Of a stretch of DNA of 64,000 nucleotides, positions 1,480 through 53,826 are shown one piece after another. The notes below the pieces were generated by a model. It searched no databases. It worked only from the letters and a program-made list of their open reading frames with translations, and was not told where the DNA came from. This DNA comes from Gammaproteobacteria bacterium (GTDB taxonomy: Bacteria; Pseudomonadota; Gammaproteobacteria; Pseudomonadales; Azotimanducaceae), in assembly GCA_963581445.1 (NCBI GenBank), contig CAUZON010000014.1, positions 3,672-67,671 on the forward strand. Reading direction: 5' to 3'. Every line of letters begins with the position of its first letter. Position 1 is the first letter of the stretch. The translations under genes were made by a program, and so were the position numbers.

Positions 1480-1780
1480 ATTAATTTCCTGTTGTTGCGG
1501 TTCCATTCGGGATACTAACTTAGGTTGGCGGTGGCGCAAACGGGGATTGGCTTTGCTGCTGTGATCTGGTTACCATTCAGGCTCAGGAAACTTGATACTG
1601 TTTGAGTTGGGGCTGCGCCATTTTGGTGGTGTGTCTTCTTCTAATCCTAGCCAGTAAGCAGAGCCTTTGTGCGCTTAATGTGCTCAGACGGTAGGAGGTT
1701 ATGTAAATGCTAGGGCTGTGGTTCAGGAAGTAGCGATAGCTACGCAACGAGATAAATTAATTCAAAAAAGGGAAGAAACT

Positions 1781-2965
1781 ATGAGAGACGTAGTAATTGT
1801 TGATAGTGTTCGCACAGGCTTAACCAAAGCCTTCCGTGGTAGCTTTAACCTAACGCGATCAGATGATCTTTTGGCGCATTGCATCGATTCACTTTTAAAT
1901 CGCAATCCAAATGTCGGAGCTGATGAAGTAGAAGACGTCATTGTTGGCGCTGCGACTCACACTGGTGAACAAGACGGTAACTTAGCTCGTCTTGCAGTAA
2001 TTTTGTCAAAACTACCTGTAAGCGCCGCTGGCGTTTCAATTAACCGTTTTTGTTCTTCAGGCCTGCAATCAATTGCTATGGCTGCGAACCAAATTGCTTC
2101 AGGTCAATCCGAAGTAATGATCGCTGGCGGTGTTGATTCAATTTCTATGCGCACACGTCAAGAAGCTGGCAAATCTAAGCAAAACAAGCGTTTGATGGAA
2201 GAAAAGCCAGAGATCTTCATGGCTATGGGTAACACGGCAGAGGTTGTTGCACGTCGTTACAACGTAACCCGTGAAATGCAGGACGAGTACGCATTACAAA
2301 GCCAAATTCGTTACGCAGCAGCTGTTGCTTCAGGCAAGATTGCTGAAGAGATTGTTGGCATGAACGCTACTATGCTCAAAGTGAACAAAGAAACCGGCGA
2401 AGAAACTCATGAAACTGTATGGGTTGATCAGGATGAATGTAACCGTCCTAACACCACTCTTCAAGGCTTGGCGTCTTTAGCGCCGGCATTTGAAGAAGAT
2501 GGTTCAGTAACGGCTGGTAACTCTTCGCAGTTGTCTGACGGTGCTTCAATGACCATGTTGATGAGTGCTGAACGTGCAGCTCAGTTGGGCATTCAGCCAA
2601 TCGGTATTTATCGTGGTTTCACTGTTGCTGGTTGTGAGCCTGATGAAATGGGCATTGGTCCAGTATTTGCTATTCCACGTTTGTTGAAGAACGCTGGTCT
2701 ATCAATCAATGACATCGACTTGTGGGAATTGAACGAAGCATTTGCTTCTCAGTGCCTCTACTGTCGTGATGCGCTAGAAATTGACAATGAAAAGTACAAT
2801 GTACTTGGCGGTAGTATTTCAATCGGACACCCATTTGGTATGACCGGTTCACGTACTACAGGTGTTGTTTTGCGTGAGCTTAAGCGCCGTAACCAAAAGT
2901 ATGGTGTTGTGACCATGTGTATTGGTGGTGGTCAGGGTGCTGCTGGATTGTTCGAAGTAGCATAA
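1781..2965 (+). CDS. acetyl-CoA C-acyltransferase (thiolase)
   Basis: MRDVVIVDSVRTG start with GGGAAG RBS. Thiolase motifs NRFCSSGLQ, GNSSQLSDGA, GHPFGMTG and CIGGGQG are present. The upstream part of track ORF 1718 was judged non-coding. Confidence 0.9.
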   Translation: MRDVVIVDSVRTGLTKAFRGSFNLTRSDDLLAHCIDSLLNRNPNVGADEVEDVIVGAATHTGEQDGNLARLAVILSKLPVSAAGVSINRFCSSGLQSIAMAANQIASGQSEVMIAGGVDSISMRTRQEAGKSKQNKRLMEEKPEIFMAMGNTAEVVARRYNVTREMQDEYALQSQIRYAAAVASGKIAEEIVGMNATMLKVNKETGEETHETVWVDQDECNRPNTTLQGLASLAPAFEEDGSVTAGNSSQLSDGASMTMLMSAERAAQLGIQPIGIYRGFTVAGCEPDEMGIGPVFAIPRLLKNAGLSINDIDLWELNEAFASQCLYCRDALEIDNEKYNVLGGSISIGHPFGMTGSRTTGVVLRELKRRNQKYGVVTMCIGGGQGAAGLFEVA

Positions 2966-27577: not shown

Positions 27578-29020
27578 ATGGCTGATGAACAAGCGTTACA
27601 TTTTCAATCTTTGTCGAATATCTGTCGGCAGCTTAAGAGTGGGGCCTTGTCCTCTGTGGCGCTCACCCAGTATATGTTTGAACGCATTCACAGATTGGAC
27701 GGGCAAACTCTGAGTTTTGCTCGGCTGCTTGAAGAGCAAGCCTTAATAACCGCTGCGGCAAGAGATGAGGCTCGTGCCAAAGGTCAGCCTTTAGGCGCAT
27801 TGCACGGCGTACCTATTGCCATTAAGGATCTGCTCTATACCAAAGACATAGTCACCGCCTCTGGCACCTTGGTGATGCAGGACTTTCGTCCAACTTTTGA
27901 TGCAACGGTTGTCACGCGGCTCGAGCAAGCGGGCGCCGTGATCATTGGTAAAACACAATTAACAGAAGGTGCTTTTGGTCATCATCATCCAGATATTCCA
28001 GCGCCAATAAATCCCTGGCATAAGCGTGCTTGGAGTGGTGTTTCATCTTCAGGCTCCGGCGTCAGTGTTGCTGCTGGGTTAGCGTTTGCAGCCTTGGGTT
28101 CTGACACAGGCGGCAGTATTCGTTTTCCATCGGCTAGCTGTGGTCTAGTTGGACTGAAGCCCACTTATGGCAGGGTCAGTTTGTATGGCGCTTTTCCACT
28201 GGCTGGCAGCCTTGATCATATTGGCCCTATGACCCGTAGTGTAGAAGATGCCGCGCGTATGCTTAGTGTTATGGCGGGCTACGACGAAAACGATCCCGGC
28301 TCCGTGAACGCAAGTGTGCCCAATTATTTGGCCGACGTTGTTGCTGAAGGCTCTAACGAATGCTCTGAGGTGAGTTTTGCAGGCGTACGTATAGGTGTTG
28401 ACTGGGATTATGTCAGTAATGGTGTGGCGCTTGAAGTAAGCCAAGTCGTCCGCGATACGCTTGATGCACTGAGCAAACTGGGCGCTGAGATTTGCCCGGT
28501 AGTTATGCCAGAAAGTTATAAAATTTTGGCCAGTGGCTGGGCGGTGACCACGGGTGTTGAATGCGCCAAGGCGCATAGCGAATTTTACCCACAACAAAAA
28601 GCTGAGTACGGGCCAGATTTGGCAGCCCTTATTGATTTAGGCTTGCGGGTGACAGCAGAAGATTATGCTCAGTTAGAGCGCATTCGACGCGATTTCACCG
28701 CGCAAATGGAACAAGTGCTAACTCAGGTCGATGTCATGATTAGCCCATGTATGCCCATAGCCACACCGGACATTGAAGTGATGTCTGAACTTAGTCCTGA
28801 AGAAGGCCAGGCAGATTTTTTAACATTCACAGCGCCATTTGATTACTCCGGTCATCCAACACTGACATTGCCGTCAGCACTGGATGCCAATTCACGACCA
28901 GCATCGTTTCAATTGGTGGCGGTCAAACTAGGCGAAGCCAATTTGCTTAGAGTAGGCTCAATGATCGAGCAAAGTTTGCCCCGGTTGTCCTACCCGGAAT
29001 TGGATCAAGCCGGCACGTAG
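27578..29020 (+). CDS. amidase (amidase-signature family)
   Basis: IAIKD Lys region and GSDTGGSIRFPS are present. The Gly/Ser-rich loop is divergent (SGVSSSGSGVSVAAG). Confidence 0.88.
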   Translation: MADEQALHFQSLSNICRQLKSGALSSVALTQYMFERIHRLDGQTLSFARLLEEQALITAAARDEARAKGQPLGALHGVPIAIKDLLYTKDIVTASGTLVMQDFRPTFDATVVTRLEQAGAVIIGKTQLTEGAFGHHHPDIPAPINPWHKRAWSGVSSSGSGVSVAAGLAFAALGSDTGGSIRFPSASCGLVGLKPTYGRVSLYGAFPLAGSLDHIGPMTRSVEDAARMLSVMAGYDENDPGSVNASVPNYLADVVAEGSNECSEVSFAGVRIGVDWDYVSNGVALEVSQVVRDTLDALSKLGAEICPVVMPESYKILASGWAVTTGVECAKAHSEFYPQQKAEYGPDLAALIDLGLRVTAEDYAQLERIRRDFTAQMEQVLTQVDVMISPCMPIATPDIEVMSELSPEEGQADFLTFTAPFDYSGHPTLTLPSALDANSRPASFQLVAVKLGEANLLRVGSMIEQSLPRLSYPELDQAGT

Positions 29021-38962: not shown

Positions 38963-39195
38963 TAAGAACCTCCTTTCGATTGTTTTTAATGCGCTTTTAT
39001 AAGGAGCGCGGAAAAACTTATATAACTCTTTTAGTGGTGATACTCCAAATATGTACTTGAGTCCGAAAGCAACTACTTCTCAGCGGAATTTTGTATACCG
39101 AAAGTTAATTTTTTACTACAAGGTGCGGTAAGTAAAAACAGCGACGCAATTTCAATAGTGTCGAGTTTAGGACTAATTACCTTGGAAAAAAATGC

Positions 39196-40839
39196 ATGAA
39201 GGCTTCTGATTTAATGGTTAAGTGTTTGGAGGCGGAAGGCGTTGAGCTTATTTTTGGCGTGCCTGGTGAAGAAAATGCTGATTTTATGATGAGTTTAGAA
39301 AAATCTGCGAGCATTCGATTTGTGCTCACCCGACATGAACAGCGTGCTGCATTTATAGCAGAAATATACGGTCGTCTTACCGGCGCGCCGGCTGCGTGCC
39401 TAGGCACTCTTAGTCCTGGGGCCACCAATCTGATTACCGGCGTTGCTGATGCCAATATGGATCGAGCGCCAATGTTAGTTCTCACCGGCCAAGGCAGTAC
39501 CAAGCGCCTGCATAAAGAGTCTCATAAGATTATGGACGTGGTAAAGATGTTCGAGCCGGTAATGAAATGGGCGACAACTATTATTCATGCTGACAACATT
39601 CGGGAAATTGGGCAAAGCTGTGCGTATTGCGCGCAGCGAAAAGCCCGGCGCAGTACTCATTGAGTTGCCAGAAAACATTGCCGAAGACGATACCCTCGCT
39701 TTGCCAATGCTGCCCATCCGATTTCGGCGTTCCCAAGCCCATAGCGAGACCATTGTGGATGCGGCAGCAAAAATTTGCGCTGTAAACCGCCCAGTTATTT
39801 TGGCCGGTAATGGCTGCGTAAGAAAAAGAGGCGCAGGAATATTGCGCGAACTGGCAGCAGTTACAGGTATTGGTGTACTCAATATTTTTATTGCGAAAGG
39901 TGCGCTCCCAACTGACCCTGAGCAATCTTTGTACACCATCGGCCTCGGTTCAAAAGACATTGGTACTTATGCCATTGATGCGGCGGATTTAGTCATTTGT
40001 ATTGGTTTTGATATGGTGGAGTACCATCCTAGCCTTTGGAATGCGGCGGGGGAGAAAAAAATCATTCATATCGATTTTACTCCTGCGGAAATAGACAGTG
40101 ACTACCACCCGGAGCTGGAGTTGGTTGGTGATCTTGCTGACACCTTAGAAGCCTTGGTATTTGAGTTAAAAAATCTCCGAGTTTTGATTTTGATCTCAGC
40201 CAGCAAGCGTTAACGCGTAAAGAAATGGCCACTGAATTTGACCTTTATCGCAATGACGTAACTCAAGGCCTTATCAAACCGCAGAAAGCATTAGCCGACG
40301 TGCAACAGATCTACGCTAAAGATGGTTTGTTATTTTCTGACGTGGGCGTCCACAAAATGTGGATAGCCCGCTATTATCACTGTGATATTCCCAATGGCTG
40401 TCTTATTCCTAACGGATTCTGTTCAATGGGTTTTGCTTTGCCAGGGGCCATTGCGGCAAGCCTGGTGGAGCCTGAGCGTAAAATTATCGGCATTGCGGGC
40501 GACGCTGTATTTTTGATGAACGTGCAGGAAATGGAAACGGCCACGCGTCTGAACAGTAATATTACGATGATGATTTGGGAAGACAATGCCTACGGGCTAA
40601 TAGCCTGGAAACAATGGGCGCAATTTGGTCGGCATACAGATTTGTCCTTCAATAATCCTGATTGGTCATTGCTGGCGGCCACTTTTAGCTGGGACTATAA
40701 ATATGTCGATGACAGTCGACTGCTGCTTGATGCGCTGGTTGAGGCATCTCAGCACAATGGTTTTAGCCTTATTGTGATACCAATAGACTACAACGAGAAT
40801 CAACTTCTAACCCACCGATTAGGTGAAATGAACGGATAG
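39196..40839 (+). pseudogene. ThDP-dependent acetolactate-synthase-like enzyme, split by two frameshifts
   Basis: Three track ORFs (39196.., 39587.., 40225..) together form one ThDP enzyme: an N-terminal Pyr domain, a middle domain, and a C-terminal PP domain with GIAGDAVFLMNVQEMETA. The frame changes near A3 at 39605..39607 and at A6 at 40168..40173. Confidence 0.8.
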
Positions 40840-42418: not shown

Positions 42419-42537
42419 GTCGAATGGTAACTATACGAAATTTAGTAGCCCGGGTTTTGTTAGCCAATTTTTTAAAAGTGGTTTTTTACCAGTAGGGTTT
42501 TGCAGGCAGGTTTTACAAGTTAAAGAAAGACTGAGCA

Positions 42538-43778
42538 ATGATAAGCACAATTATGGGTCAGGTTTTAGCAATCAGCGGGTTGGCCGTGGTGGGTTTGTTG
42601 ATGCAACGGTTGCTGCGTATTGAGCTTACCTTGGCATGTTTATTGGTCGGTTTTCTTGCTGGATTGGGTTTGGAATTTACTGGTTTTGACACCGGGATAA
42701 GAGCCAGCAACTTACACGAGCTTGTTTTTTTGTGATTTTGCCAGTACTCATCTTTGAAGCGGCTTGGGAGCTTAACCCAGGCTTACTTAAAAAGTTGTTG
42801 CTGCCCATTTTATTGATGGCTACGTTGGGGGGGTTGCTGTGTACTTTTATCATCGCTGGATTGGTCTATTTAGGTATTGGTCACGCAGAAGGGTTCCCTT
42901 GGGTGGCTGCACTTTTGACTGGCACTATTCTGGCAGCGACAGACCCTGTGGCGGTTATTGCACAATTACGCAGCGCTAAGGTATCTGCGGATCTCACCAA
43001 AATATTCGAGGGCGAAAGTCTGTTTAACGACGCGACTGCCGTAGTGCTATTCAGTATTGTCATTGGCTTGGCTACTAATAGCGTAGAGGCTGGCGATAGT
43101 TATCTGGCGTTCTTCTCATTGGTCGCTGTTGGCGGTTTAGTGTTTGGCGCCATTGCTGGATTGGTGGTCAGCGCCGTTGTATTGCTTGTGGGTTCGTCCA
43201 TAGCCAGCCGTTTTATATTGGTCTTTTCGGCCTTTGCGAGTTTTATTGTGGCGGAGCATGTGTTGCACATCTCGGGTATCTTGGCAGTGATGATGACAGC
43301 CATTGTTTCTCGTTTTACTTTGCGAGAAGTAGAGACCACCGTTGCTGAAGGTATCGCCGGCACATTGGAGTGGTTGGGTATATACTTTAATCGTATTTTG
43401 TTCGCCATTATGGGGCTTGTGGTTACGTTAGCCATGTTCCGTGATCAAAGGGTGGCTATGCTAGTTGCCATTGCCGCAGCGATTATTGCTCGAGTAGTTG
43501 CCGTTGGCGTTAGTTGTTTGTGCGCCCGTCCTCTCAGTACGCCTATTTCATTAGCGTGGCAGGGGTTACTGGTTTGGGGTGGTTTGCGCGGCGCTATAGC
43601 TATTGCGTTGGTGCTGGCCCTACCAACAAGCTTACCTTATTGGTGGACAATACAGTCGATGGTATTTGGCGTGGTGCTGTTCAGCCTGCTTGTACAGGGC
43701 ACGACTAACCCTTACCTGCTCGCGCGGGTTGTCGGCTCGCCGCTAACAACCTCTACTAATACCTCAGAGGGCGACTAA
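42538..43778 (+). pseudogene. CPA1-family Na+/H+ antiporter interrupted by a -1 frameshift in a T7 run
   Basis: Track ORFs 42538..42735 and 42732..43778 join as ...NLHELVF(F/L)VILPVLIFEAAW... across TTTTTTT 42725..42731. This could be a sequencing error rather than true decay. Confidence 0.7.
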
Positions 43779-43793
43779 AACCCCCTAATCTAT

Positions 43794-46046
43794 TTAGTAC
43801 AACGTTATGTTTAAGGTCCGATAACCAGCCGCTTCTATTGCCGCTTTAACCGGCCCGGTGCTGTCCGGGCATAGGGCGATCATGGATCCACCACCACCAC
43901 CACCGGTGAGTTTTGCACCCACTGCGCCATTTTGCCGCGCAACGTGAATCATTTCTTCTAGCTCAGGCGTGGAAAGTTGCAATGCATTGAGATAGCCGTG
44001 ACACAAATTCATCAGTTCGCCTAACTCATTCAGTTGCCCGCTTTTGACTGCGTCGCTTGCGGACATAGTGAGATGCCCGATCTGATCAAAAATGGTTTCG
44101 TAACGCCCCGGATATTGTTGCCATGAGGCTCTTACCCTGGCTACTGTGTCCGCGGTTAGGCTCTCTTTACCGGTCATGCCAATAACTAATTCTAGCGGTT
44201 GGCCAATTTTTAAAGTGCTGAATAACGGTTGCTCGTCGCGGCGCTGGTAATACAGTGGCGAGCCATAAGTGGCCACGGTGTTGTCCACACCGGAAGGTGT
44301 GCCGTGAGCGGCTTTTTCGCACTCAAAGGCCAATTCATTAATGCGCCCATCTTTGAGATCTAGTCTATAAGCGTGGTCGATGGCACGGATAATCGCCACA
44401 GCCAATGCCGAAGATCCACCTAGTCCCATTGCTCTGGGGATATGTGGGAAGACCTCGATGGTCATATCTTCTTTATCGAGGCCAAGCTGCTCTAGCAGCT
44501 GCGCGATAATGCCGGTAAAGCCGGGGTTAGTGACGCGCACTTTTTGCTCAACACCCCAGCGCGGAATGACTACATTGATACCGTCGCCACCTTTGCGAAT
44601 AGCGGCTTCCACAGCCAAGGGAATTGGTAGGGCGATAGCCGGTCTGCCATAAACCACGGCGTGTTCGCCAAGCAAAATGATTTTGCCGCAAGCGGCTTGG
44701 CGCTCGGCAACGTCAGGTTGGACGATTTTGCGCGCTAGATTTTTGGCTATCTCTTGGGCTTTCCAGACTTTAATTTCGCCCGATTCAATAAGGCTTTCTA
44801 CCACGGTTTCAAAGTGTTCGTCTGAAACGCCTGCAGAACTAGCCACGCTGCGGGCATGCAAATTCATATGGTTTTGCTGTATGCCGTCGGTGGAAAGTGA
44901 GCGTAGGGCGGCAAAGTTTTGTGCCAAGCCAATTGCCGCCATAATACCTGCCAGTTCCGACGCGTTGGGTGAGCCCAGCAGTCTATGATTGATTCTTACG
45001 CTAGGGTTGGTCTCTAACGACCCGCCTACAGTGCCTACTTTCATTGGGATAGCTATTTCACCAACCAAATAGCCGGGCTCGTCTTTGTGCCAAACAGTTA
45101 ACGCTTTATAACGCCCGCTTGCTGCTGCATAAGCATGGGCAGCAGCTTCAATGGCGCGCCAGTCGTTACCCGTGGCAATAGCCACAGCGTCTACGCCGTT
45201 CATAATGCCTTTGTTATGGGTTGCTGCACGGTAGGGATCGGCCAGTGCTAAGTCGTTAGCGAGGACTATGCCGTCTCTGACTTCTTCGCCCGTGTAGCCT
45301 TTACCTTCCAAATTTTGGATAGGTATGCGCACCTTCGCTCGAGCCACTGCGCGATCTGTAAGGTTAGATAAAATGCGTAAGAAAACTTTACCGCCTGTAA
45401 GGGTTTCGGCTAGTGAGGCAACGCCCTCGCACATGGTGTTAACCAGGTTTGCGCCCATGGCGTCTCGGGTATCTACTAGCAGGTGCATGACCACCATCAG
45501 GCGACCGTCGTGTTCTGCCTTGTAGTCAAATACTTCTATGTCTAGTGCGCCGCCGCCTCGCGCCACCATTTTTGGGTGCAAGCTATTGGCTAGCGCCAGT
45601 ATTTCTTCTTTGTTTTCTAGTAATATAGATTTGGCCGCTTCTGGATCGCCATCTATGACTACCTGTACTTGGCCAATGAGTATGGGAGTTACTTCCTCGG
45701 CAATAAACCCACCGCCCAGGCGTGCTAGGCGTGCCGCGCCGGATAGGCCTGCAACGATAGAAGGCTCTTCTACTACTAGCGGAATAACGTAGTCGCGGTT
45801 GTTAATGAGGAAGTTTAGGGCTACGCCCATGGGCAAACCAAAAACACCGATGACATTTTCTATCATCTTATCGGCCACGTTAAGCTGCACCTGGTGGCTG
45901 CCGGTCGTAAGTTGTTGCACATCCTCCTGGGAAAGCAGGCCGCGCTGATGCAGCGCTGCAATGCGTTGATTGATGTTTAAGCGGAAAAAATTTGGGATCC
46001 GAGAAGATCCCTGTTGGTCTTGTTCAGTCTTTGACTGTGATGCCAT
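43794..46046 (-). CDS. bifunctional class II HMG-CoA reductase / mevalonate kinase fusion protein
   Basis: Residues ~15-437 carry class II HMGR motifs: ENVIG, EEPSIVAG, DAMGANLVN, THNKG, GNDWR. Residues ~451-750 carry GHMP kinase motifs: GKIILLGEHAVVYG, GLGGSSALAVAI, KLTGGGGGGSMIAL. The ORF is a single uninterrupted 750-aa frame. Confidence 0.88.
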   Translation of the reverse strand: MASQSKTEQDQQGSSRIPNFFRLNINQRIAALHQRGLLSQEDVQQLTTGSHQVQLNVADKMIENVIGVFGLPMGVALNFLINNRDYVIPLVVEEPSIVAGLSGAARLARLGGGFIAEEVTPILIGQVQVVIDGDPEAAKSILLENKEEILALANSLHPKMVARGGGALDIEVFDYKAEHDGRLMVVMHLLVDTRDAMGANLVNTMCEGVASLAETLTGGKVFLRILSNLTDRAVARAKVRIPIQNLEGKGYTGEEVRDGIVLANDLALADPYRAATHNKGIMNGVDAVAIATGNDWRAIEAAAHAYAAASGRYKALTVWHKDEPGYLVGEIAIPMKVGTVGGSLETNPSVRINHRLLGSPNASELAGIMAAIGLAQNFAALRSLSTDGIQQNHMNLHARSVASSAGVSDEHFETVVESLIESGEIKVWKAQEIAKNLARKIVQPDVAERQAACGKIILLGEHAVVYGRPAIALPIPLAVEAAIRKGGDGINVVIPRWGVEQKVRVTNPGFTGIIAQLLEQLGLDKEDMTIEVFPHIPRAMGLGGSSALAVAIIRAIDHAYRLDLKDGRINELAFECEKAAHGTPSGVDNTVATYGSPLYYQRRDEQPLFSTLKIGQPLELVIGMTGKESLTADTVARVRASWQQYPGRYETIFDQIGHLTMSASDAVKSGQLNELGELMNLCHGYLNALQLSTPELEEMIHVARQNGAVGAKLTGGGGGGSMIALCPDSTGPVKAAIEAAGYRTLNITLY

Positions 46047-46980
46047 GTTTGGCCATCTCCAAATCTAATAACAAAAAATTTTGATCCGATACCCTACTGC
46101 GAAATTTTTCTAGTGCATCTTTATCTTGGCTCAGCGCTATGCCGATATCGCCGCCACCTGCGCCACAAGGTTTATAGGTGAGGCCTTGTGATACCGCCAG
46201 TTTAACCAAGCTGAGGTGCTCTGTGGTAAAAATATTCAGCTTTGCGCTTTGATCTAGAGCAAAAAGTGCTTTTTGATACTGCTTGAGCAAATCATTGCTG
46301 ATGGGGTGCTCGCACAACAAGCTACTCAGCGCAGATAAATCATCAAGCAGGCCAGAATCATCTGTTTGCCGCCAAGTATCAAAATTTGCTATGTGGTCTG
46401 TGGTTTTGGCACTTTTACCGGTCCAGACCAGCTGCCAATGCAGATCTTCTGGCCATTGGAAGGGTTGGGCGACGCCGTTTTGATACGTTATCACGCCACC
46501 GAACCAAGATGCTGCAACGTCCAAGCCGCTACCTTTGCCGCTTTGCCAGTTGCGATGAATTTGCTGTGCTTCGGCCAATGACGGTTCTTTGTCCAATAAA
46601 TGACAGAGCCCCGCATAGGTGGCGTTACATACCGCGGCTGAGGAACCTAAACCCAATTTTTGGCCAGCAGAAAAAAAATCAGAGCTGTCGGTATGCAGGT
46701 GCATGCCAGCGCATAGCTCGTTGAGGTGTTGTATACCCCAATGCTGCAATACAGCAGTGGTAAATCCGGTGGTAGGGGCAGTGGGTAATGTTTCGTCTTC
46801 TTCATTGACGCTGACGCTGGGGCTGTCAAATCCTGCGCTGCTGAAATGCCATGTTTGGTCGCTGCGCGTTTCTATGCTCACTTGAGCTGTGGCGTTCACT
46901 GCCATGATAGCGGCGGGCGCGCCAGTCAACACGGCATACTCACCCCAAAGAACCGCTTTGCCCGGTGCGGTAAACTTCAC
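46024..46980 (-). CDS. phosphomevalonate kinase (GHMP family)
   Basis: APGKAVLWGEYAVLTG, KLGLGSSAAVCNA, GSGLDVAASWFGG and KPCGAGGGDIGIA motifs. GTG start 46980 overlaps the upstream stop (GTGA). The longer Arg-rich track extension was rejected. Confidence 0.82.
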   Translation of the reverse strand: MKFTAPGKAVLWGEYAVLTGAPAAIMAVNATAQVSIETRSDQTWHFSSAGFDSPSVSVNEEDETLPTAPTTGFTTAVLQHWGIQHLNELCAGMHLHTDSSDFFSAGQKLGLGSSAAVCNATYAGLCHLLDKEPSLAEAQQIHRNWQSGKGSGLDVAASWFGGVITYQNGVAQPFQWPEDLHWQLVWTGKSAKTTDHIANFDTWRQTDDSGLLDDLSALSSLLCEHPISNDLLKQYQKALFALDQSAKLNIFTTEHLSLVKLAVSQGLTYKPCGAGGGDIGIALSQDKDALEKFRSRVSDQNFLLLDLEMAKHGITVKD

Positions 46981-47924
46981 TGGTCGATAATCTGTGCGCC
47001 TTCGCCCAGTCCACAGTCGATAATTTCTACCACGCCTGGTACTTGTGCCAATGCTGCGCTGACGGCTGGACGACTTTCCGCTGTGCACACGGCCTTAATT
47101 TGTGCCCCTGCATCTACAGTAAAAAAAACTTGATGTCCTTGGTCACGCAGGGCTCTTACGCAATCCATGCAAGCAATACTTGCGGGTGTCCAGTAGCTTA
47201 AGGTTGGGTTACTGGTCAGCATCAAGCTGTGCATTTTTAGACAGCTCAGTTCTGCAACTTGGGCCAGTTGAGTGAAATCGCGCAAACTAATTGCCTGGGC
47301 GGCCGAACTATAGTCTTCGGCTGCACCTCGCAACCATGCATTGTAAAAAGGTGAGGTTTGCTTGGATCGCTGCATACCTTGAGTAGAGTTCACAGCTTTT
47401 GCTGCTCTGCTGGTCACAGCAACGACGACTTCTAAGGGCCAGTGACTGCTGGGCGCCAGGCGCATGGCTTCCCATTGAGGCGGTACTAACGCCACAAATC
47501 CTCCGTGAATTGAACGAGCTGCGCTTGCAGACCCTTGGCGCGCCCAATTTGAACGCATCTCCTCATTTAGACCTAGGTCGCAATGTGCGTTAACGGCTGT
47601 GATGAGGGCCGCAAAGCCAGATGCAGAAGAGGCAAGACCCGCACTGGTTGGAAAGTTGTTGTCGCTATTGATGATCAGGCTTGGTACTTCAAATTCACTG
47701 CGAAGCGTCTGCAACCAGCGTTCTATCTTCGCGTCCTCAATCTGCTCACCGTTAAGGTGAAACGCGTCCTCTTTGCCTTCCTTTATCTTCGTGGTGGTGG
47801 TCAGATTTGACAGGGTAATAGACAGGTTGGGCGTAGCGGGCAGGTTGCCGGGCTTGCTTTGTTTACCCCAGTATTTCACTAGGGCAATGTTTGGGTGCGC
47901 TTGGGCTGTAGTTATATTTTGCAT
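46977..47924 (-). CDS. mvaD: diphosphomevalonate decarboxylase
   Basis: AHPNIALVKYWGK, NFPTSAGLASSASGFAAL and FFTVDAGAQIK motifs are typical of MVD. Confidence 0.9.
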   Translation of the reverse strand: MQNITTAQAHPNIALVKYWGKQSKPGNLPATPNLSITLSNLTTTTKIKEGKEDAFHLNGEQIEDAKIERWLQTLRSEFEVPSLIINSDNNFPTSAGLASSASGFAALITAVNAHCDLGLNEEMRSNWARQGSASAARSIHGGFVALVPPQWEAMRLAPSSHWPLEVVVAVTSRAAKAVNSTQGMQRSKQTSPFYNAWLRGAAEDYSSAAQAISLRDFTQLAQVAELSCLKMHSLMLTSNPTLSYWTPASIACMDCVRALRDQGHQVFFTVDAGAQIKAVCTAESRPAVSAALAQVPGVVEIIDCGLGEGAQIIDQ

Positions 47925-48176
47925 AGCGGCGCAATGTTACCTCATATCTCCCATTGGGAGCAGTTAGCTTAGGCTGGAGGCAAAATTTCAGAGAAGCGTG
48001 CGTTGAATGGCTAGCGCATAGGACACAAGTGCGCGCCATTATTGAAATGCCAAAAGGCAAAGAAGCAAAAAAAACTATAAATCAGTGACTTATAGTCTAT
48101 CGTTCGGAAAATTGAAGCCCGCGTTGCGGCGCGTCTGAACGCGCTGGTTGAGGGTTAGTTGGGTACTAAATAAGTG

Positions 48177-49631
48177 CTACATATAAGCGGGCGGCGGTGT
48201 GAAACCAAACCCTGCTAATTCCAGCTTTTGCGCCACGCCAATGGTGATTAAATCACCCAGCTCAGGCCCAACGATCTGCACGCCAATGGGCAATCCATCT
48301 TTATTCAGCCCTGTGGGAATAACCGTAGACGGTAGGAAGGAGACGCCAGTAAGCCCGGCCCAGAACACTTGCTCAAAGTAAGGGCGTTCTTGGTTGTCTA
48401 CTTGCAACGTGCGCTCGGCAAAGGGTCGCTGGTCGTGCTTAAAGGCGGGAGTTGCCATCATAGGTGTGAGCAAAATATCGTATTTGCCGAAGAACTCATG
48501 CCAGACCCAGCGCAGTTTGTGCCGGGCTTCATTGGCCTCGCCCCATTGCTTAAAGCTCGAAACTTGAGCGCGCAATACTTTTGAACTTTCGCGGTCGTCA
48601 TTTGGGTCTAAGTCTTTCACGTACTTGAGCAAATTCTCATAGTCCGCGTCAGACATGCGCATGGCCATAGTTGAGTGCAGTAGCTTGCGGTAAACGTCTT
48701 CTACATGTGCAGCAGAAAAATCAGGGCGCGCATCTTCATCAATCGTAGCACCTTCATCTCTTAATGCTTGAGCCACTAAATCCACTCTCGCTTCAACTTC
48801 TCGGCTGACAGGTGCCGATGCTTCGTTTTTCCAAACGCCGACTTTAAGGTCACTCAGAGGGCGGTTGCCTAACACTGGCAGGTCTAGCTTAACGCCGCGA
48901 GACGCTATCTCATCAGGACCAGCCATCACTCTTACTGCGGTTTCCAGATCAAATGCAGATCTGGCTAGCGGACCGATCACAGAAATGTCAGATCCTGCGC
49001 GACTGTCTCCTGGGGGCGCATGCCCACGCATCCAGAGTAAATTGTGGGTGGGCTTATGGCCGAATACCCCGCAGAAGTGCGCTGGATTACGAATGGAGCC
49101 TCCGATATCCGAGCCCGTTTCCAGCCCTGTTAAGCCAGCAGCTAGCGCTGCAGCGGAACCGCCAGAAGAACCGCCGGGAATACGCTCGTGGTCATAGGGG
49201 TTATTAGTTGTGCCGTAAATTTCGTTGTAGCTTTGAAAATCAGCCAAAGACAGCGGTACATTGGTTTTACCAAAGAGTGTAACGCCGGCTTGTTTGAGTT
49301 TTTTTACAGACTCGGCATCCTCTTTTGGCACGTTGTCTGCCCATGCCGGATTGCCCCATGTGGTGGGCGTACCCGCAACGTTATAGGATTCCTTCACTGT
49401 CATAGGTACACCGTGAAGAGGGCCGCAAGATTCACCTCGCGCCATCTTGGCATCCGCTTTCTCGGCATCTTTCAATGCCTCTTCGCGGATATCCACAATG
49501 ATCGCATTGAGGTCACCGTTGTATTGGTCCACGCGACCTAAATAGTGATTAAGTAGCTCGACTGCGGAAATTTCTTTGTTTTGTATTTTAGCGGCCAACT
49601 GTGTTGCCGAAAGAAATGCTAGTTCGCTCAT
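48177..49631 (-). CDS. amidase (amidase-signature family)
   Basis: MTVKE Lys region, GGSSGGSAAALA and GSDIGGSIRNPA. Start taken at ATG 49631 with GGGAGGGAAG RBS. Confidence 0.9.
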   Translation of the reverse strand: MSELAFLSATQLAAKIQNKEISAVELLNHYLGRVDQYNGDLNAIIVDIREEALKDAEKADAKMARGESCGPLHGVPMTVKESYNVAGTPTTWGNPAWADNVPKEDAESVKKLKQAGVTLFGKTNVPLSLADFQSYNEIYGTTNNPYDHERIPGGSSGGSAAALAAGLTGLETGSDIGGSIRNPAHFCGVFGHKPTHNLLWMRGHAPPGDSRAGSDISVIGPLARSAFDLETAVRVMAGPDEIASRGVKLDLPVLGNRPLSDLKVGVWKNEASAPVSREVEARVDLVAQALRDEGATIDEDARPDFSAAHVEDVYRKLLHSTMAMRMSDADYENLLKYVKDLDPNDDRESSKVLRAQVSSFKQWGEANEARHKLRWVWHEFFGKYDILLTPMMATPAFKHDQRPFAERTLQVDNQERPYFEQVFWAGLTGVSFLPSTVIPTGLNKDGLPIGVQIVGPELGDLITIGVAQKLELAGFGFTPPPAYM

Positions 49632-49818
49632 GGTTCTTCCCTCCCGAAAAAGTGCCAATAAGTTTTAGAAGTCAGCTTGGACTGTGCAGGGTTAGCTGGA
49701 AATTTTCAAGGTATGGGGTATTTGGGTATGTTGGAAAAGGTTTGGGGACTGCCGGGCTGACGGTTGTACTCCAGGCTAAGAGTTTGCTGTGGGGTAGAGC
49801 ACTTTGCCGGCGTTGTTT

Positions 49819-51498: not shown

Positions 51499-53826
51499 AT
51501 GAAGCAAATATTAGACGGCATTACTGTAGTAGAGGTGGGCAACGGGCCCCTATCAGGCATGGTGGGTATGGTTCTGGCAGATTTCGGTGCGCAAGTAGTT
51601 TGGTTTGAATATGGGCAATCTGAGCATGAATATAGGGTTTGGCAGCGTGGCAAGCTGCGTGTAAGCGTCAATTTGGCCGTGGCAGCGGGCAGTGCCTGTG
51701 AGGACGCCGCCAAGATACGCCAGCATATTTTGGCTTCTGCCGATGTATTTTTGACGGATCTATCTGCCTCTGCGCTGGCACAACTGGGCCTAGGTTGGCC
51801 TGATTTCGAACCTCATCGGCCGGACTTGATTCAAGGTCAGGTCAGCGGATTTGGTGAAGACAACAAATACAGTCATTTGGCCGCCAACGGTGAAAGCTTA
51901 GTGGTTGATGAATCTTTAGTGGCGGCTGCCATTGGCCGTATGATGGTTTTTGAAGGTGTAGCAGAACGTCCAGGCCCAGTTTATCCGGCCCTTAAAGTGG
52001 GTACCCACGGAGCCAGTCAGGCCCTGCTAGCTGGCATTTTGGCCCAATTGTTTAACAGAACTGAGACCGGTCATGGGCAGCTACTGCGCAGCAATATGTT
52101 GCGCGCTCTTACTGCCTGTGACCTTGTGGGTCTGGGTGCCAGTCAAGTGGACCCCTCGCCTGTGCCGTATATAGATCCTCATGCGGTGCTGCCCATGCTC
52201 AATTATCAACCTGTGCAATGTGCTGACGGGCGCTGGTTACAGCTGGGCAATTTGTTGCCCCACCTGCAAGCCAACTTTCTTAAAGCTGCGGGTCTTGAGG
52301 CTGTGCTTGAAGAAGCGAAGTTACTCGAAGAGCCCTTTAGCGAGGCAGTTACTGAGGATTTTAGGCGGCGTATTTGTTTGCAAATGCAGACCCGCACCCA
52401 GCAGCAATGGATGGATCTTTTCTTAGCCGACGGTGGTGTTGCTGGCCATCCCTACCAAAGCACTCAAGAGGCGTTTTTAGATGCAGACATAGTGTCTAAC
52501 GGCCACATAGATGCAATCGGTGGCGTGACTCAGCTCGGTCTTTTGGGCGATTTCACTGCAACGCCGGGGCAGGTTGCTGGCGCGCCTGAAACAATTTCCA
52601 TGGCAGCGTTGTCTATGCGGGCATCATTTAACGGGCAGCAAAAAGCCACTTCATCTAAGAGGGCGCAGACGAAGGCGCCGTTGGCTGAAGCAACTTTGCC
52701 ATTGGCTGGCGTTACCGTAGTGGAAGCCGCGGCCATTATTGCCTCGCCCTTTGGTGCCAGTATGCTGGCGGATCTTGGCGCACGGGTGATCAAGATTGAA
52801 CCGATAGACGGCGATCCCTTTCGTGTCATGGCCTTTGGCTTGGGTGCAGCTCGGTGTAATACGGACAAAGAGAGTATTGCCCTGAACCTGAAGTCAGCTG
52901 AGGGACAAAAAATAGCACAATCTCTGGTCGCCAAGGCGGACCTGTTTATTCACAACTATCGGCCTGGGGTGCCAGAACGGTTGGGCCTAGATTACCTAAG
53001 TTTGTCCGCGCTCAACCCCAAGCTCGTGTATATGTCGGTGAATGGTTACGGGCCCAATGGACCCGGAGCGCTGCGCCCATCTACCCACCCCATACCCGGT
53101 GCGGCGCTAGGTGGCGTGCTTTATCAATTTGGCCAGCTGCCCAATGAGCTACAAGCCTACCCCGAATTACTTGAGACCAGTCGGCGTTTATTTCGCGCCA
53201 ATGAGCTGAATCCTGATCCAAATACGTCTTTTGTCGTTGCCAGCGCTGCCACCATGGGGCTGCTAGCGTCGCGCAAGTTGGGTGCGGGGCAGATTGTTTA
53301 TCTAGACATGTTCGGCGCCAATGCTTATGCGAATTTTGACGACTTTTTGCTACAGGAAGAGGTCAGCAGTCGGGCGGCATTGGATACTGATTATTTGGGT
53401 AAAGGGCCTTACCACCAGCTTTATCCCTGTAAAGAGGGCTGGCTTTTTGTGGGTCTCAGCAGCAAAGCAGAGCAGCAGCAATTCCATGAAGTGGTGGGCG
53501 ATTTCGCAGATTTAATGAATTTATCGTCTCAAGCGTGGGAGCAATTGCTGCTGCCGCTAGGCCTGGGATGCATTCAAGCAGATGGCCCAACACCGGGTGC
53601 GCGCATTCAAGCTGAGCATTTTGTTGCCAGTGAGTTAGCTGTGCAGTTCACCCACCCTTTGCGCGGGACAGGGTTACGGCATGGCGCGATGTCTGAATGG
53701 CCACAGCTACAGCGTACTCTGCAAGGGCCGTGTGAAGCAGGGGACAGTACCGATGCGCTAATGAACGAATTGGGTTTTACCGGCCCTGAAATTGTTCAGT
53801 TGAGAACAAGTGGTGCTATTCATTAG
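51499..53826 (+). CDS. tandem-duplicated family III (CaiB/BaiF) CoA-transferase
   Basis: Two N-terminal-type modules lie in one ORF. The first is LDGITVVEVGNGPLSGMVGMVLADFGAQVVWFE at residue 5. The second is LAGVTVVEAAAIIASPFGASMLADLGARVIKIEP at residue ~402. Each is followed by a GFG/GYG segment. Confidence 0.8.
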   Translation: MKQILDGITVVEVGNGPLSGMVGMVLADFGAQVVWFEYGQSEHEYRVWQRGKLRVSVNLAVAAGSACEDAAKIRQHILASADVFLTDLSASALAQLGLGWPDFEPHRPDLIQGQVSGFGEDNKYSHLAANGESLVVDESLVAAAIGRMMVFEGVAERPGPVYPALKVGTHGASQALLAGILAQLFNRTETGHGQLLRSNMLRALTACDLVGLGASQVDPSPVPYIDPHAVLPMLNYQPVQCADGRWLQLGNLLPHLQANFLKAAGLEAVLEEAKLLEEPFSEAVTEDFRRRICLQMQTRTQQQWMDLFLADGGVAGHPYQSTQEAFLDADIVSNGHIDAIGGVTQLGLLGDFTATPGQVAGAPETISMAALSMRASFNGQQKATSSKRAQTKAPLAEATLPLAGVTVVEAAAIIASPFGASMLADLGARVIKIEPIDGDPFRVMAFGLGAARCNTDKESIALNLKSAEGQKIAQSLVAKADLFIHNYRPGVPERLGLDYLSLSALNPKLVYMSVNGYGPNGPGALRPSTHPIPGAALGGVLYQFGQLPNELQAYPELLETSRRLFRANELNPDPNTSFVVASAATMGLLASRKLGAGQIVYLDMFGANAYANFDDFLLQEEVSSRAALDTDYLGKGPYHQLYPCKEGWLFVGLSSKAEQQQFHEVVGDFADLMNLSSQAWEQLLLPLGLGCIQADGPTPGARIQAEHFVASELAVQFTHPLRGTGLRHGAMSEWPQLQRTLQGPCEAGDSTDALMNELGFTGPEIVQLRTSGAIH

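What the first reader, a model, noticed from the sequence alone, without database searches (positions are those of the whole stretch)
43794..46046. HMG-CoA reductase fused to mevalonate kinase in one 750-aa polypeptide
A single uninterrupted ORF carries two complete enzymes. Residues ~15-437 form a full class II HMG-CoA reductase, with ENVIG, EEPSIVAG, DAMGANLVN, THNKG, GNDWR and a C-terminal His region. A short linker (ARKIVQPDVAERQA) follows. Residues ~451-750 form a full GHMP-type mevalonate kinase, with GKIILLGEHAVVYG, GLGGSSALAVAI and KLTGGGGGGSMIAL. These enzymes catalyse consecutive steps: HMG-CoA to mevalonate, then to mevalonate-5-phosphate. The fusion could therefore channel mevalonate. 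The well-known HMGR fusion is thiolase-HMGR (Enterococcus MvaE). I do not know of a characterised HMGR-MK fusion, but I cannot search for the architecture here.
Basis: partly seen in the sequence, partly recalled or inferred. Interest (0 to 1): 0.7.

Follow-up and report, generated by a model that had tools for sequence, protein, structure and literature searches.

The report
Natural HMG-CoA reductase–mevalonate kinase fusion enzyme
One 750-residue gene really does join two consecutive enzymes of the mevalonate (isoprenoid-precursor) pathway; the fusion is genuine, catalytically intact and widespread in marine and saline Gammaproteobacteria, but databases label it only as a "degradative" reductase and I found no paper that studies it.

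Summary
Window 43794..46046 (-) is one uninterrupted 750-aa ORF. It holds a complete class II HMG-CoA reductase (residues 15-434), a 16-residue linker (435-450) and a complete GHMP mevalonate kinase (451-750). Both halves score above the curated NCBIfam cut-offs.

It is not an assembly artefact. The same in-frame fusion occurs in all 80 species-level genomes retrieved (58-99% identity) and in all 120 listed database clusters, several of them seen on dozens of metagenome contigs. In 95 aligned fusions, seven of the eight catalytic residues are invariant and the eighth is kept in 94.

The gene is the last of a translationally coupled operon: MVD, then PMK, then HMGR::MK. Its cofactor helix (HxKxxxR) resembles the NADPH type. 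I therefore read it as biosynthetic, despite the database name "degradative".

The architecture is common. At least 29 clusters at 50% identity carry it, from Azotimanducaceae, Wenzhouxiangella, Woeseiaceae and others. Relatives include HMGR-MK-IDI triple fusions and reversed MK-HMGR fusions in Myxococcota.

The linker varies from 6 to 67 residues and both domain orders exist. This argues for proximity or stoichiometric coupling rather than a built tunnel. Channelling remains untested. I found no paper describing the fusion. It is a moderately interesting, uncharacterised variant of known enzymes.

The parts
43794..46046 (-). HMGR::MK fusion gene, 750 aa plus stop
   Evidence: Single ORF. Pfam and NCBIfam hits to both enzymes are above curated cut-offs. 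It is 99% identical and collinear with MAG contig CAJXUL010000003.1 (L001).
44745..46004 (-). Class II HMG-CoA reductase domain, residues 15-434, including the C-terminal flap domain that carries His393
   Evidence: Aligns to P. mevalonii 1QAX residues 5-422 at E 1e-118. Catalytic E94, K279, D295 and H393 correspond to P. mevalonii E83, K267, D283 and H381. They are conserved in 95, 95, 95 and 94 of 95 fusions.
45558..45578 (-). Cofactor helix H157-P-K-M-V-A-R163 (HxKxxxR)
   Evidence: Translation. The position maps to P. mevalonii D146-x-L148-x-x-x-L152. The motif rule is Dx(V/L)xxxL for NADH and (H/Y)xSxxxR for NADPH, taken from PMC13488460, which cites Miller & Kung 2018. In the family, 71/95 have HxKxxxR and 10/95 have HxNxxxR.
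44697..44744 (-). Interdomain linker, residues 435-450 (KNLARKIVQPDVAERQ)
   Evidence: Translation. Residues 426-450, which contain the linker, are one of the most variable 25-residue blocks of the family alignment (entropy 2.21; blocks 501-525, 601-625 and 726-750 score the same or higher). The spacer measured between alignment positions 436 and 452 is 6-67 residues across 95 fusions and 15 in the window. No long homopolymer in the DNA.
43797..44696 (-). GHMP mevalonate kinase domain, residues 451-750
   Evidence: TIGR00549 at 244 bits against a cut-off of 163. PDB matches are 2HFS at 1e-42, 2X7I and 6MDE. K455, S545, E577, D588 and the G-rich motif III are invariant or nearly so.
46024..46980 (-). 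GHMP kinase in the phosphomevalonate kinase position, 318 aa with a GTG start
   Evidence: Best NCBIfam hit is TIGR01220 phosphomevalonate kinase at 89.9 bits, below its cut-off of 165.7. The GTG start overlaps the MVD stop as GTGA. Its own stop lies 23 nt inside the fusion ORF. The gene is conserved in this position in 79 of 80 loci.
46977..47924 (-). Diphosphomevalonate decarboxylase (MVD), 315 aa, first gene of the cluster
   Evidence: TIGR01240 at 243.7 bits against a cut-off of 171. Pfam MVD-like_N and MDD_C. Found upstream of PMK in 76 of 80 related loci.

Best explanation
The gene encodes a genuine bifunctional enzyme of the biosynthetic mevalonate pathway.

The N-terminal class II HMG-CoA reductase reduces HMG-CoA to mevalonate, probably with NADPH. 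The C-terminal GHMP kinase, tethered by a short flexible linker to the end of the reductase's mobile flap domain, phosphorylates mevalonate to mevalonate 5-phosphate with ATP.

The gene is the last cistron of a translationally coupled operon, MVD then PMK then HMGR::MK. Four pathway activities are therefore made from one transcript, and the fusion fixes HMGR and MK at 1:1.

The most likely benefit is co-expression at fixed stoichiometry and local proximity. A reductase closely related to the reversible P. mevalonii enzyme would have its product removed at once by an irreversible ATP-driven step. That would pull flux forward and limit mevalonate loss. A structurally defined substrate tunnel is less likely.

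Shown: the fusion, its conservation, intact catalytic residues, and the operon context. Inferred: both activities, NADPH preference, and the kinetic benefit.
For: - Intact ORF with both families above curated cut-offs.
- Strong matches to solved HMGR and MK structures over their full lengths.
- One uninterrupted in-frame HSP across both domains in all 80 species-level genomes, at 58-99% identity. All 120 best database clusters are 660-762 aa (117 of them 747-762 aa, three shorter or partial) and carry the same three Pfam domains.
- Seven of the eight catalytic residues are kept in 95/95 fusions and H393 in 94/95.
- The MVD-PMK-fusion gene order is conserved. Start and stop codons overlap and a GGAG lies 9 nt upstream of the ATG.
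- In Wenzhouxiangella an IDI type 1 gene follows directly. In a Desulfobacterales MAG it is fused on, giving HMGR-MK-IDI.
- The cofactor helix HxKxxxR resembles the published NADPH motif, not the NADH motif.
- The linker is hypervariable in length and sequence, and the reversed order MK-HMGR exists in Myxococcota. Both fit a tether rather than a rigid interface.
Against: - No enzyme activity was measured.
- The cofactor helix has Lys where the published NADPH motif has Ser, so specificity could be dual or different.
- HMG-CoA synthase and IDI are not in the 64-kb window, so pathway completeness in this organism is not shown.
- The window carries frameshifts in two neighbouring genes relative to a 95%-identical MAG, so local sequence quality is imperfect.
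- The AlphaFold model was too poor (pLDDT 67, pTM 0.42) to say anything about domain packing.
Confidence: 0.85

Rival explanations
1. True substrate channelling. The fused domains, assembled through the HMGR dimer and the MK dimer, form a defined path. Mevalonate passes from one active site to the other without equilibrating with the cytosol.
For: The steps are consecutive. The linker is short in this clade (16 residues) and joins the mobile flap that carries His393 to the first MK strand that carries Lys455, so the two active sites are close in sequence. The fusion is retained over deep divergence and arose in both orders.
Against: Linker length ranges from 6 to 67 residues with no sequence conservation. 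The reversed MK-HMGR order also exists. This is hard to reconcile with one conserved inter-domain geometry. No confident inter-domain model was obtained. Mevalonate is small and uncharged at only one group, so there is no obvious electrostatic guidance (inference).
Confidence: 0.25
2. Assembly or sequencing artefact. Two adjacent genes, mvaA and mvk, were merged by a lost stop codon or an indel in this assembly.
For: The window has frame disruptions in a TPP enzyme gene (about 39610 and 40150) and in the Na+/H+ exchanger gene (about 42700-42800) that are absent from a near-identical MAG. Indel errors or pseudogenes therefore occur nearby.
Against: The same continuous reading frame across the junction is found in all 80 independent species-level genomes. 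These include cultured Wenzhouxiangella isolates and closed long-read chromosomes. It is also found in all 120 listed database clusters, from six data sources and in several cases dozens of contigs each. There is no homopolymer at the junction.
Confidence: 0.01
3. Catabolic or salvage role, as the database name 'HMG-CoA reductase, degradative' implies. The reductase would oxidise mevalonate to HMG-CoA as in Pseudomonas mevalonii.
For: The best NCBIfam model is TIGR00532 ('degradative'). The closest solved structure is the catabolic P. mevalonii enzyme. No HMG-CoA synthase lies in the window or among the recurrent neighbours.
Against: The reductase is fused to mevalonate kinase and co-transcribed with PMK and MVD, which consume mevalonate towards IPP. 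IDI follows in Wenzhouxiangella. The cofactor helix is not the NADH type DxLxxxL. No HMG-CoA lyase gene is adjacent.
Confidence: 0.05
4. One half is a catalytically dead, regulatory or scaffolding domain (a pseudoenzyme), and the real second activity is encoded elsewhere.
For: None specific. A stand-alone MK elsewhere in the genome cannot be excluded from a 64-kb window.
Against: All catalytic and nucleotide-binding motifs of both halves are invariant or nearly so across 35-99% identity. Both halves pass equivalog-level cut-offs.
Confidence: 0.04

Closest known systems
MvaE of Enterococcus faecalis (acetoacetyl-CoA thiolase fused to class II HMG-CoA reductase; HMGR part solved as PDB 7M1Z/7M3H)
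   Same: A natural bifunctional mevalonate-pathway protein built on a class II HMGR. The HMGR halves are homologous (E 1.1e-85).
   Different: In MvaE the partner is a thiolase at the N-terminus, and the two steps are not consecutive. Here the partner is a GHMP mevalonate kinase at the C-terminus, and the steps are consecutive. No thiolase domain is present.
Pseudomonas mevalonii HMG-CoA reductase (MvaA; PDB 1QAX)
   Same: The closest solved structure, aligned over 420 residues at E 1e-118. It has the same catalytic Glu/Lys/Asp/His and the same C-terminal flap domain.
   Different: MvaA is a stand-alone, NADH-dependent, catabolic enzyme encoded next to HMG-CoA lyase (established knowledge). 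The window protein has HxKxxxR in place of DxLxxxL in the cofactor helix, carries a kinase, and sits with PMK and MVD.
Stand-alone GHMP mevalonate kinases (Leishmania major 2HFS, S. aureus 2X7I, Methanosarcina mazei 6MDE)
   Same: Full-length homology, with motif I Lys, motif II GLGSSA, the catalytic Glu/Asp and the glycine-rich motif III.
   Different: Those enzymes are independent polypeptides of about 300-330 aa. Here the first β-strand begins four residues after a linker from HMGR.
IspDF of the MEP pathway
   Same: A widespread natural fusion of two isoprenoid-precursor enzymes in bacteria (PMC13001223).
   Different: It belongs to a different pathway and has different folds. It joins non-consecutive steps.
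Relatives found here: HMGR-MK-IDI1 (P0122, Desulfobacterales MAG) and MK-HMGR (P0141 and P0147, Myxococcota MAGs)
   Same: The same two enzymes in one chain, each above NCBIfam cut-offs.
   Different: One has a third enzyme appended. The others have the reversed domain order, which indicates separate fusion events.

Membership tests
Class II HMG-CoA reductase (Pfam PF00368 / NCBIfam TIGR00532) | Profile score above the curated cut-off over the full domain | tested here: met
   PF00368 at 340.7 bits (cut-off 27), profile positions 2-368 of 368. TIGR00532 at 394.4 bits (cut-off 259.95).
Class II HMG-CoA reductase (Pfam PF00368 / NCBIfam TIGR00532) | Catalytic Glu83, Lys267, Asp283 and His381 (P. 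mevalonii numbering) | tested here: met
   E94, K279, D295 and H393, mapped on the 1QAX alignment. Conserved in 95, 95, 95 and 94 of 95 fusions.
Class II HMG-CoA reductase (Pfam PF00368 / NCBIfam TIGR00532) | C-terminal flap domain present | tested here: met
   The alignment to 1QAX continues to chain residue 422 of 428 (query residue 434).
Class II HMG-CoA reductase (Pfam PF00368 / NCBIfam TIGR00532) | NADPH-type cofactor helix (H/Y)xSxxxR versus NADH-type Dx(V/L)xxxL | tested here: inconclusive
   The window has HxKxxxR. His and Arg match the NADPH motif, but Lys replaces Ser. It is clearly not the NADH motif.
Class II HMG-CoA reductase (Pfam PF00368 / NCBIfam TIGR00532) | HMG-CoA reductase activity | not testable with these tools
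   Needs an enzyme assay.
GHMP mevalonate kinase (NCBIfam TIGR00549) | Equivalog profile score above the cut-off | tested here: met
   244.3 bits against a cut-off of 163.05, profile positions 1-276 of 276.
GHMP mevalonate kinase (NCBIfam TIGR00549) | Motif I Lys, motif II GLGSSA Ser, catalytic Glu/Asp (rat K13, S146, E193, D204; numbering from memory), and glycine-rich motif III | tested here: met
   K455, S545, E577 and D588 are each 95/95. TGGGGGG at 714-720 is nearly invariant.
GHMP mevalonate kinase (NCBIfam TIGR00549) | Mevalonate kinase activity, as opposed to another GHMP substrate | not testable with these tools
   Supported only by the equivalog score and the operon context.
MvaE-type thiolase-HMGR fusion | N-terminal thiolase domain | tested here: not met
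   There is no thiolase hit in the 750-aa protein, and HMGR starts at residue 15. The only thiolase found in the window is a separate gene at 1718..2965.
Degradative mevalonate-utilisation locus (P. mevalonii mvaAB type) | HMG-CoA lyase adjacent, NADH-type cofactor helix, no downstream kinase or decarboxylase genes | tested here: not met
   The neighbours are PMK and MVD upstream and a convergent Na+/H+ exchanger downstream. The cofactor helix is HxKxxxR.
Complete bacterial mevalonate pathway cluster | HMG-CoA synthase and IPP isomerase present with HMGR, MK, PMK and MVD | tested here: not met
   Every ORF of 367 aa or more in the window was scanned, and none is an HMG-CoA synthase or an IDI. 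No HMGS appears among the gene families recurring in at least 11 of the 80 loci. These genes may lie elsewhere in the genome, which was not testable.

The most novel reading that the evidence does not exclude
The fusion is a functional device, not just gene economy. Tethering an irreversible ATP-dependent kinase to the mobile flap of a reversible, P. mevalonii-like reductase would create a self-assembling HMGR-dimer/MK-dimer complex. That complex would channel or kinetically trap mevalonate and make the reductase unidirectional. It might also let these bacteria draw HMG-CoA from leucine catabolism rather than from a dedicated synthase, since no HMGS is clustered with the operon. The recurrent, independent fusions (HMGR-MK, MK-HMGR, HMGR-MK-IDI) would then mark strong selection for coupling exactly these steps.
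Probability: 0.2. Interest if true: 0.6.

Novelty: new variant of a known kind. Interest (0 to 1): 0.4.

Why it matters
There are three reasons it matters.

1. Annotation. NCBI names all these proteins only "HMG-CoA reductase, degradative". Automated pathway reconstructions will therefore score mevalonate kinase as missing and mislabel a biosynthetic enzyme. This affects abundant marine and saline Gammaproteobacteria: Azotimanducaceae (also labelled HTCC2089 or K189A clade in the records), Woeseiaceae and Wenzhouxiangella.

2. Enzymology. Balancing HMGR against MK is, from general knowledge of the field, a recognised problem in engineered mevalonate pathways. Nature has repeatedly solved it by fusion, in both orders and with IDI added. 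These proteins are ready-made parts and a clean system for testing proximity versus true channelling.

3. Evolution. Class II HMGR turns out to be a fusion hub. Partners found here include MK, IDI, squalene/phytoene synthase, polyprenyl synthase and a cyclase-like domain.

The two enzymes themselves are ordinary, so the finding is incremental rather than surprising.

Tried and rejected
- **AlphaFold2 on a 21-sequence alignment.** Mean pLDDT was 67 and pTM 0.42. Confidence was low in the flap and linker (residues 386-446) but also elsewhere. Only homologues of 77% identity or more could be submitted, and class II HMGR is an obligate dimer. The model says nothing reliable about domain packing, so I did not run fold searches on it.
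- **Literature.** Eight full-text searches, plus term searches inside two 2026 reviews, the Hoshino & Gaucher 2018 survey and a 2026 HMGR cofactor paper, found no mention of a natural HMGR-MK fusion. Miller & Kung 2018 itself is not held. I took the cofactor motif second-hand from PMC13488460.
- **Promoter and terminator scan of 43400..48400.** It found no promoter-like site on the minus strand. Terminator-like hits were at the level expected by chance. This was uninformative.
- **Search for HMG-CoA synthase or IDI near the operon.** I clustered all ORFs of the 80 loci and Pfam-scanned the recurrent families. Only IDI type 1 was found, and only in the Wenzhouxiangella-type loci. There was no HMGS.
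- **Neighbour-joining tree of HMGR domains.** It is rough, and its sampling is biased towards the query. I use it only to say that most HMGR-MK fusions group together while MK-HMGR falls elsewhere. I do not use it to count fusion events.
- **Whole-genome questions.** MEP pathway presence and a second MK could not be addressed, because only 10-kb flanks are retrievable.
Full report
**1. The observation**

Window 43794..46046 on the minus strand is a single 750-codon ORF that starts with ATG and has no internal stop.

Pfam places HMG-CoA_red at residues 25-398 (E 1.4e-101). It places GHMP_kinases_N at 513-594 and GHMP_kinases_C at 665-730. NCBIfam equivalog models give TIGR00532 over 12-398 (394 bits, cut-off 260). 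They give TIGR00549 mevalonate kinase over 452-725 (244 bits, cut-off 163).

Against solved structures, residues 15-434 align end to end with Pseudomonas mevalonii HMG-CoA reductase 1QAX residues 5-422 (E 1e-118). The C-terminal part aligns over its whole length with the mevalonate kinases of Leishmania (2HFS, 1e-42), S. aureus (2X7I) and Methanosarcina mazei (6MDE).

The boundaries are therefore:
- HMGR at residues 15-434 (window 44745..46004).
- Linker at residues 435-450, KNLARKIVQPDVAERQ (window 44697..44744).
- MK at residues 451-750 (window 43797..44696).

No solved structure contains both domains in one chain.

**2. Is the fusion real?**

Comparative data answer the question more strongly.

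- A search of 5.8 billion protein clusters returned 120 best hits. All carry the same three Pfam domains. Of these, 117 are 747-762 aa and three are shorter or partial (660-756 aa in all below the main group). They come from NCBI, ENA, JGI, Logan, MGnify and Tara assemblies, and several were seen on dozens of independent contigs.
- A scan of one genome per GTDB species found 568 related stretches, of which the best 80 were kept.
- In every one of those 80 loci, tblastn gives a single uninterrupted HSP in one reading frame that covers both domains, at 58-99% identity.
- These include closed long-read chromosomes and cultured isolates, namely Wenzhouxiangella sediminis XDB06 and Wenzhouxiangella sp. 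EGI_FJ10305.
- The junction DNA has no long homopolymer.

One caveat concerns the window itself. Relative to a 95-99% identical MAG (L001), it carries frame changes in the neighbouring thiamine-diphosphate enzyme gene and in the Na+/H+ exchanger gene. Its local sequence quality is therefore imperfect, or these genes are decaying. The fusion ORF is nevertheless collinear with L001 at 99% identity.

**3. Are both halves functional enzymes?**

I aligned 95 fusion proteins: the window, 78 genome loci and 16 distant representatives, down to 35% identity.

- The HMGR residues equivalent to P. mevalonii Glu83, Lys267, Asp283 and His381 are E94, K279, D295 and H393. They are present in 95, 95, 95 and 94 sequences.
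- The kinase motif I Lys (K455), motif II Ser (S545) and the catalytic Glu/Asp pair (E577, D588) are each present in 95 of 95.
- The glycine-rich motif III is nearly invariant.

Neither half looks like a pseudoenzyme.

**4. Context**

The gene is the last of three co-oriented genes.

- The first is diphosphomevalonate decarboxylase (46977..47924; TIGR01240 at 244 bits).
- The second is a GHMP kinase whose best match is phosphomevalonate kinase (46024..46980). Its score is below the curated cut-off, so it is PMK by position and best hit only.
- The MVD stop overlaps the PMK GTG start as GTGA.
- The PMK stop lies 23 nt inside the fusion ORF, and a GGAG sits 9 nt upstream of the fusion ATG. This is classic translational coupling.
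- Across the 80 loci, PMK is found directly upstream of the fusion in 79 and MVD in 76. The exceptions are mostly fusion genes that lie near a contig end.

In the Wenzhouxiangella-type loci an IDI type 1 gene follows immediately (NF002995 at 173 bits, cut-off 127).

No HMG-CoA synthase or IDI is present in the 64-kb window. Every ORF of 367 aa or more was scanned. No HMGS is among the gene families that recur around the fusion. The source of HMG-CoA, the presence of the MEP pathway and the presence of any second MK could not be examined.

**5. Direction and cofactor**

NCBI names these proteins "HMG-CoA reductase, degradative", because TIGR00532 carries that name. The context contradicts this label. 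A mevalonate-consuming kinase is fused on, and PMK and MVD are co-transcribed.

The cofactor helix also bears on this. PMC13488460, citing Miller & Kung 2018, reports Dx(V/L)xxxL in NADH enzymes and (H/Y)xSxxxR in NADPH enzymes. P. mevalonii has D146-Q-L-L-N-S-L152. The window has H157-P-K-M-V-A-R163. Within the family, 71 of 95 fusions have HxKxxxR and 10 have HxNxxxR.

This resembles the NADPH type, with a basic residue in place of Ser. I infer NADPH or dual use, but this is a prediction only.

**6. How widespread is it, and is it known?**

An exhaustive HMMER search of 1.84 billion representatives at 50% identity gave the following architectures among the 150 best hits:

| Architecture | Clusters |
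|---|---|
| HMGR-MK (about 20 full length, 35-57% identical to the window) | 29 |
| MK-HMGR (reversed order) | 3 |
| HMGR with other C-terminal partners | 31 |
| HMGR with N-terminal partners | 9 |
| Stand-alone HMGR | 76 |
| MK-only hits | 2 |

Named members show the following:
- HMGR-MK occurs in Candidatus Azotimanducaceae (Pseudomonadales; records are also labelled HTCC2089 or K189A clade), which is the window's clade.
- It also occurs in Candidatus Azophilus, Wenzhouxiangellaceae, Woeseiaceae and MAGs labelled Rhodanobacter.

Pfam and NCBIfam scans of other representatives show:
- An HMGR-MK-IDI1 triple fusion in a Desulfobacterales MAG, with all three parts above cut-off.
- MK-HMGR in Myxococcota.
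- HMGR fused to squalene/phytoene synthase, to polyprenyl synthase, and to a cyclase-like domain.

A rough neighbour-joining tree groups most HMGR-MK reductase domains with the window's. It places the MK-HMGR proteins elsewhere. Together with the opposite domain order, this means at least two independent fusions.

Eight full-text searches, plus term searches inside two 2026 reviews, the Hoshino & Gaucher 2018 survey and a 2026 HMGR paper that reports a 6924-node sequence network, found no description of a natural HMGR-MK fusion. The Wenzhouxiangella AB-CW3 paper notes only that the mevalonate pathway and squalene synthase are specific to that genus (PMC7691419). Subscription-only literature is not covered, so "uncharacterised" is provisional.

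**7. Mechanism**

The best-supported reading is a bifunctional biosynthetic enzyme. HMG-CoA is reduced to mevalonate in the N-terminal half. ATP-dependent phosphorylation to mevalonate 5-phosphate follows in the C-terminal half.

The fusion guarantees 1:1 stoichiometry and co-localisation. It attaches an effectively irreversible step to a reductase whose closest characterised relative runs in reverse in vivo. That plausibly pulls flux forward and limits loss of free mevalonate (inference).

The attachment point is notable. The linker leaves the last helix of the mobile flap domain, which carries the catalytic His393. It enters the first β-strand of the kinase four residues before the catalytic Lys455. 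The two active sites are therefore close in sequence.

Against a built tunnel, the spacer measured between alignment positions 436 and 452 ranges from 6 to 67 residues. The block that contains the linker is one of the most variable 25-residue blocks of the protein. The reversed order also exists. I put true channelling at about 0.25 and the bifunctional, proximity or stoichiometry reading at 0.85.

**8. Verdict**

What changes is the rarity. This is a common architecture hidden by annotation, not a one-off.

It is a new variant of a known kind, namely natural bifunctional isoprenoid-pathway fusions such as MvaE or IspDF. Its practical value lies in annotation and in metabolic engineering. It also offers a clean test case for proximity versus channelling.

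Interest is 0.4.

Noticed in passing
window 39136..40839 (+): A thiamine-diphosphate enzyme of the acetolactate-synthase type is split into three ORFs (39196-39663, 39587-40213, 40225-40839). Frame changes lie near 39610 and 40150. The 95%-identical MAG L001 has one intact 575-aa ORF here. This is either assembly indels or a pseudogene.
   Followed up: partly
window 42535..43778 (+): The Na+/H+ exchanger gene, convergent on the fusion gene with stops 15 nt apart, has a frame change near 42700-42800. Its longest ORF is 348 aa, against 414 aa intact in L001.
   Followed up: partly
window 48177..49658 (-), and the 80 related loci: An amidase-signature gene lies directly upstream of MVD on the same strand. 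It is found directly upstream of MVD in 48 of the 80 related loci, mainly the Azotimanducaceae-like ones, and is absent from the Wenzhouxiangella-type loci. It has no obvious link to isoprenoid synthesis. The window also holds two further amidase paralogues at 22809-24245 and 27578-29020.
   Followed up: no
P0122 and P0123 (database proteins); L067 13252..13899; L070 13336..13944: HMGR-MK-IDI type 1 triple fusions (928-952 aa) exist in a Desulfobacterales MAG and a Pseudomonadota MAG. In Wenzhouxiangella the same IDI is a separate gene that overlaps the end of the fusion gene. Together these look like snapshots of stepwise fusion.
   Followed up: partly
P0141, P0147, P0161 (Myxococcota MAGs): Reversed-order MK-HMGR fusions, with both halves above NCBIfam cut-offs for P0141. 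This indicates an independent fusion of the same two enzymes.
   Followed up: partly
P0156, P0163, P0177 (database proteins): Class II HMGR is also fused to a squalene-hopene-cyclase-like domain, to squalene/phytoene synthase plus an epimerase, and to polyprenyl synthase plus squalene/phytoene synthase (880-1453 aa). Among the top 150 representatives, 31 have a C-terminal extension of unknown or mixed content.
   Followed up: no
whole window; 80 related loci: No HMG-CoA synthase gene lies in the 64-kb window or among the recurrent neighbours of the fusion operon. A thiolase sits 42 kb away at 1718..2965. The origin of HMG-CoA is open: a distant mvaS or leucine catabolism.
   Followed up: partly
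window 51499..53826 (+): A 775-aa protein with two family III CoA-transferase stretches. A similar protein of about 750 aa recurs near the operon in 14 related loci.
   Followed up: no
database annotation of P0002, P0015, P0017 and others: NCBI PGAP names the 750-aa fusion only 'hydroxymethylglutaryl-CoA reductase, degradative'. The kinase half is invisible in the product name, and the implied direction is probably wrong.
   Followed up: yes
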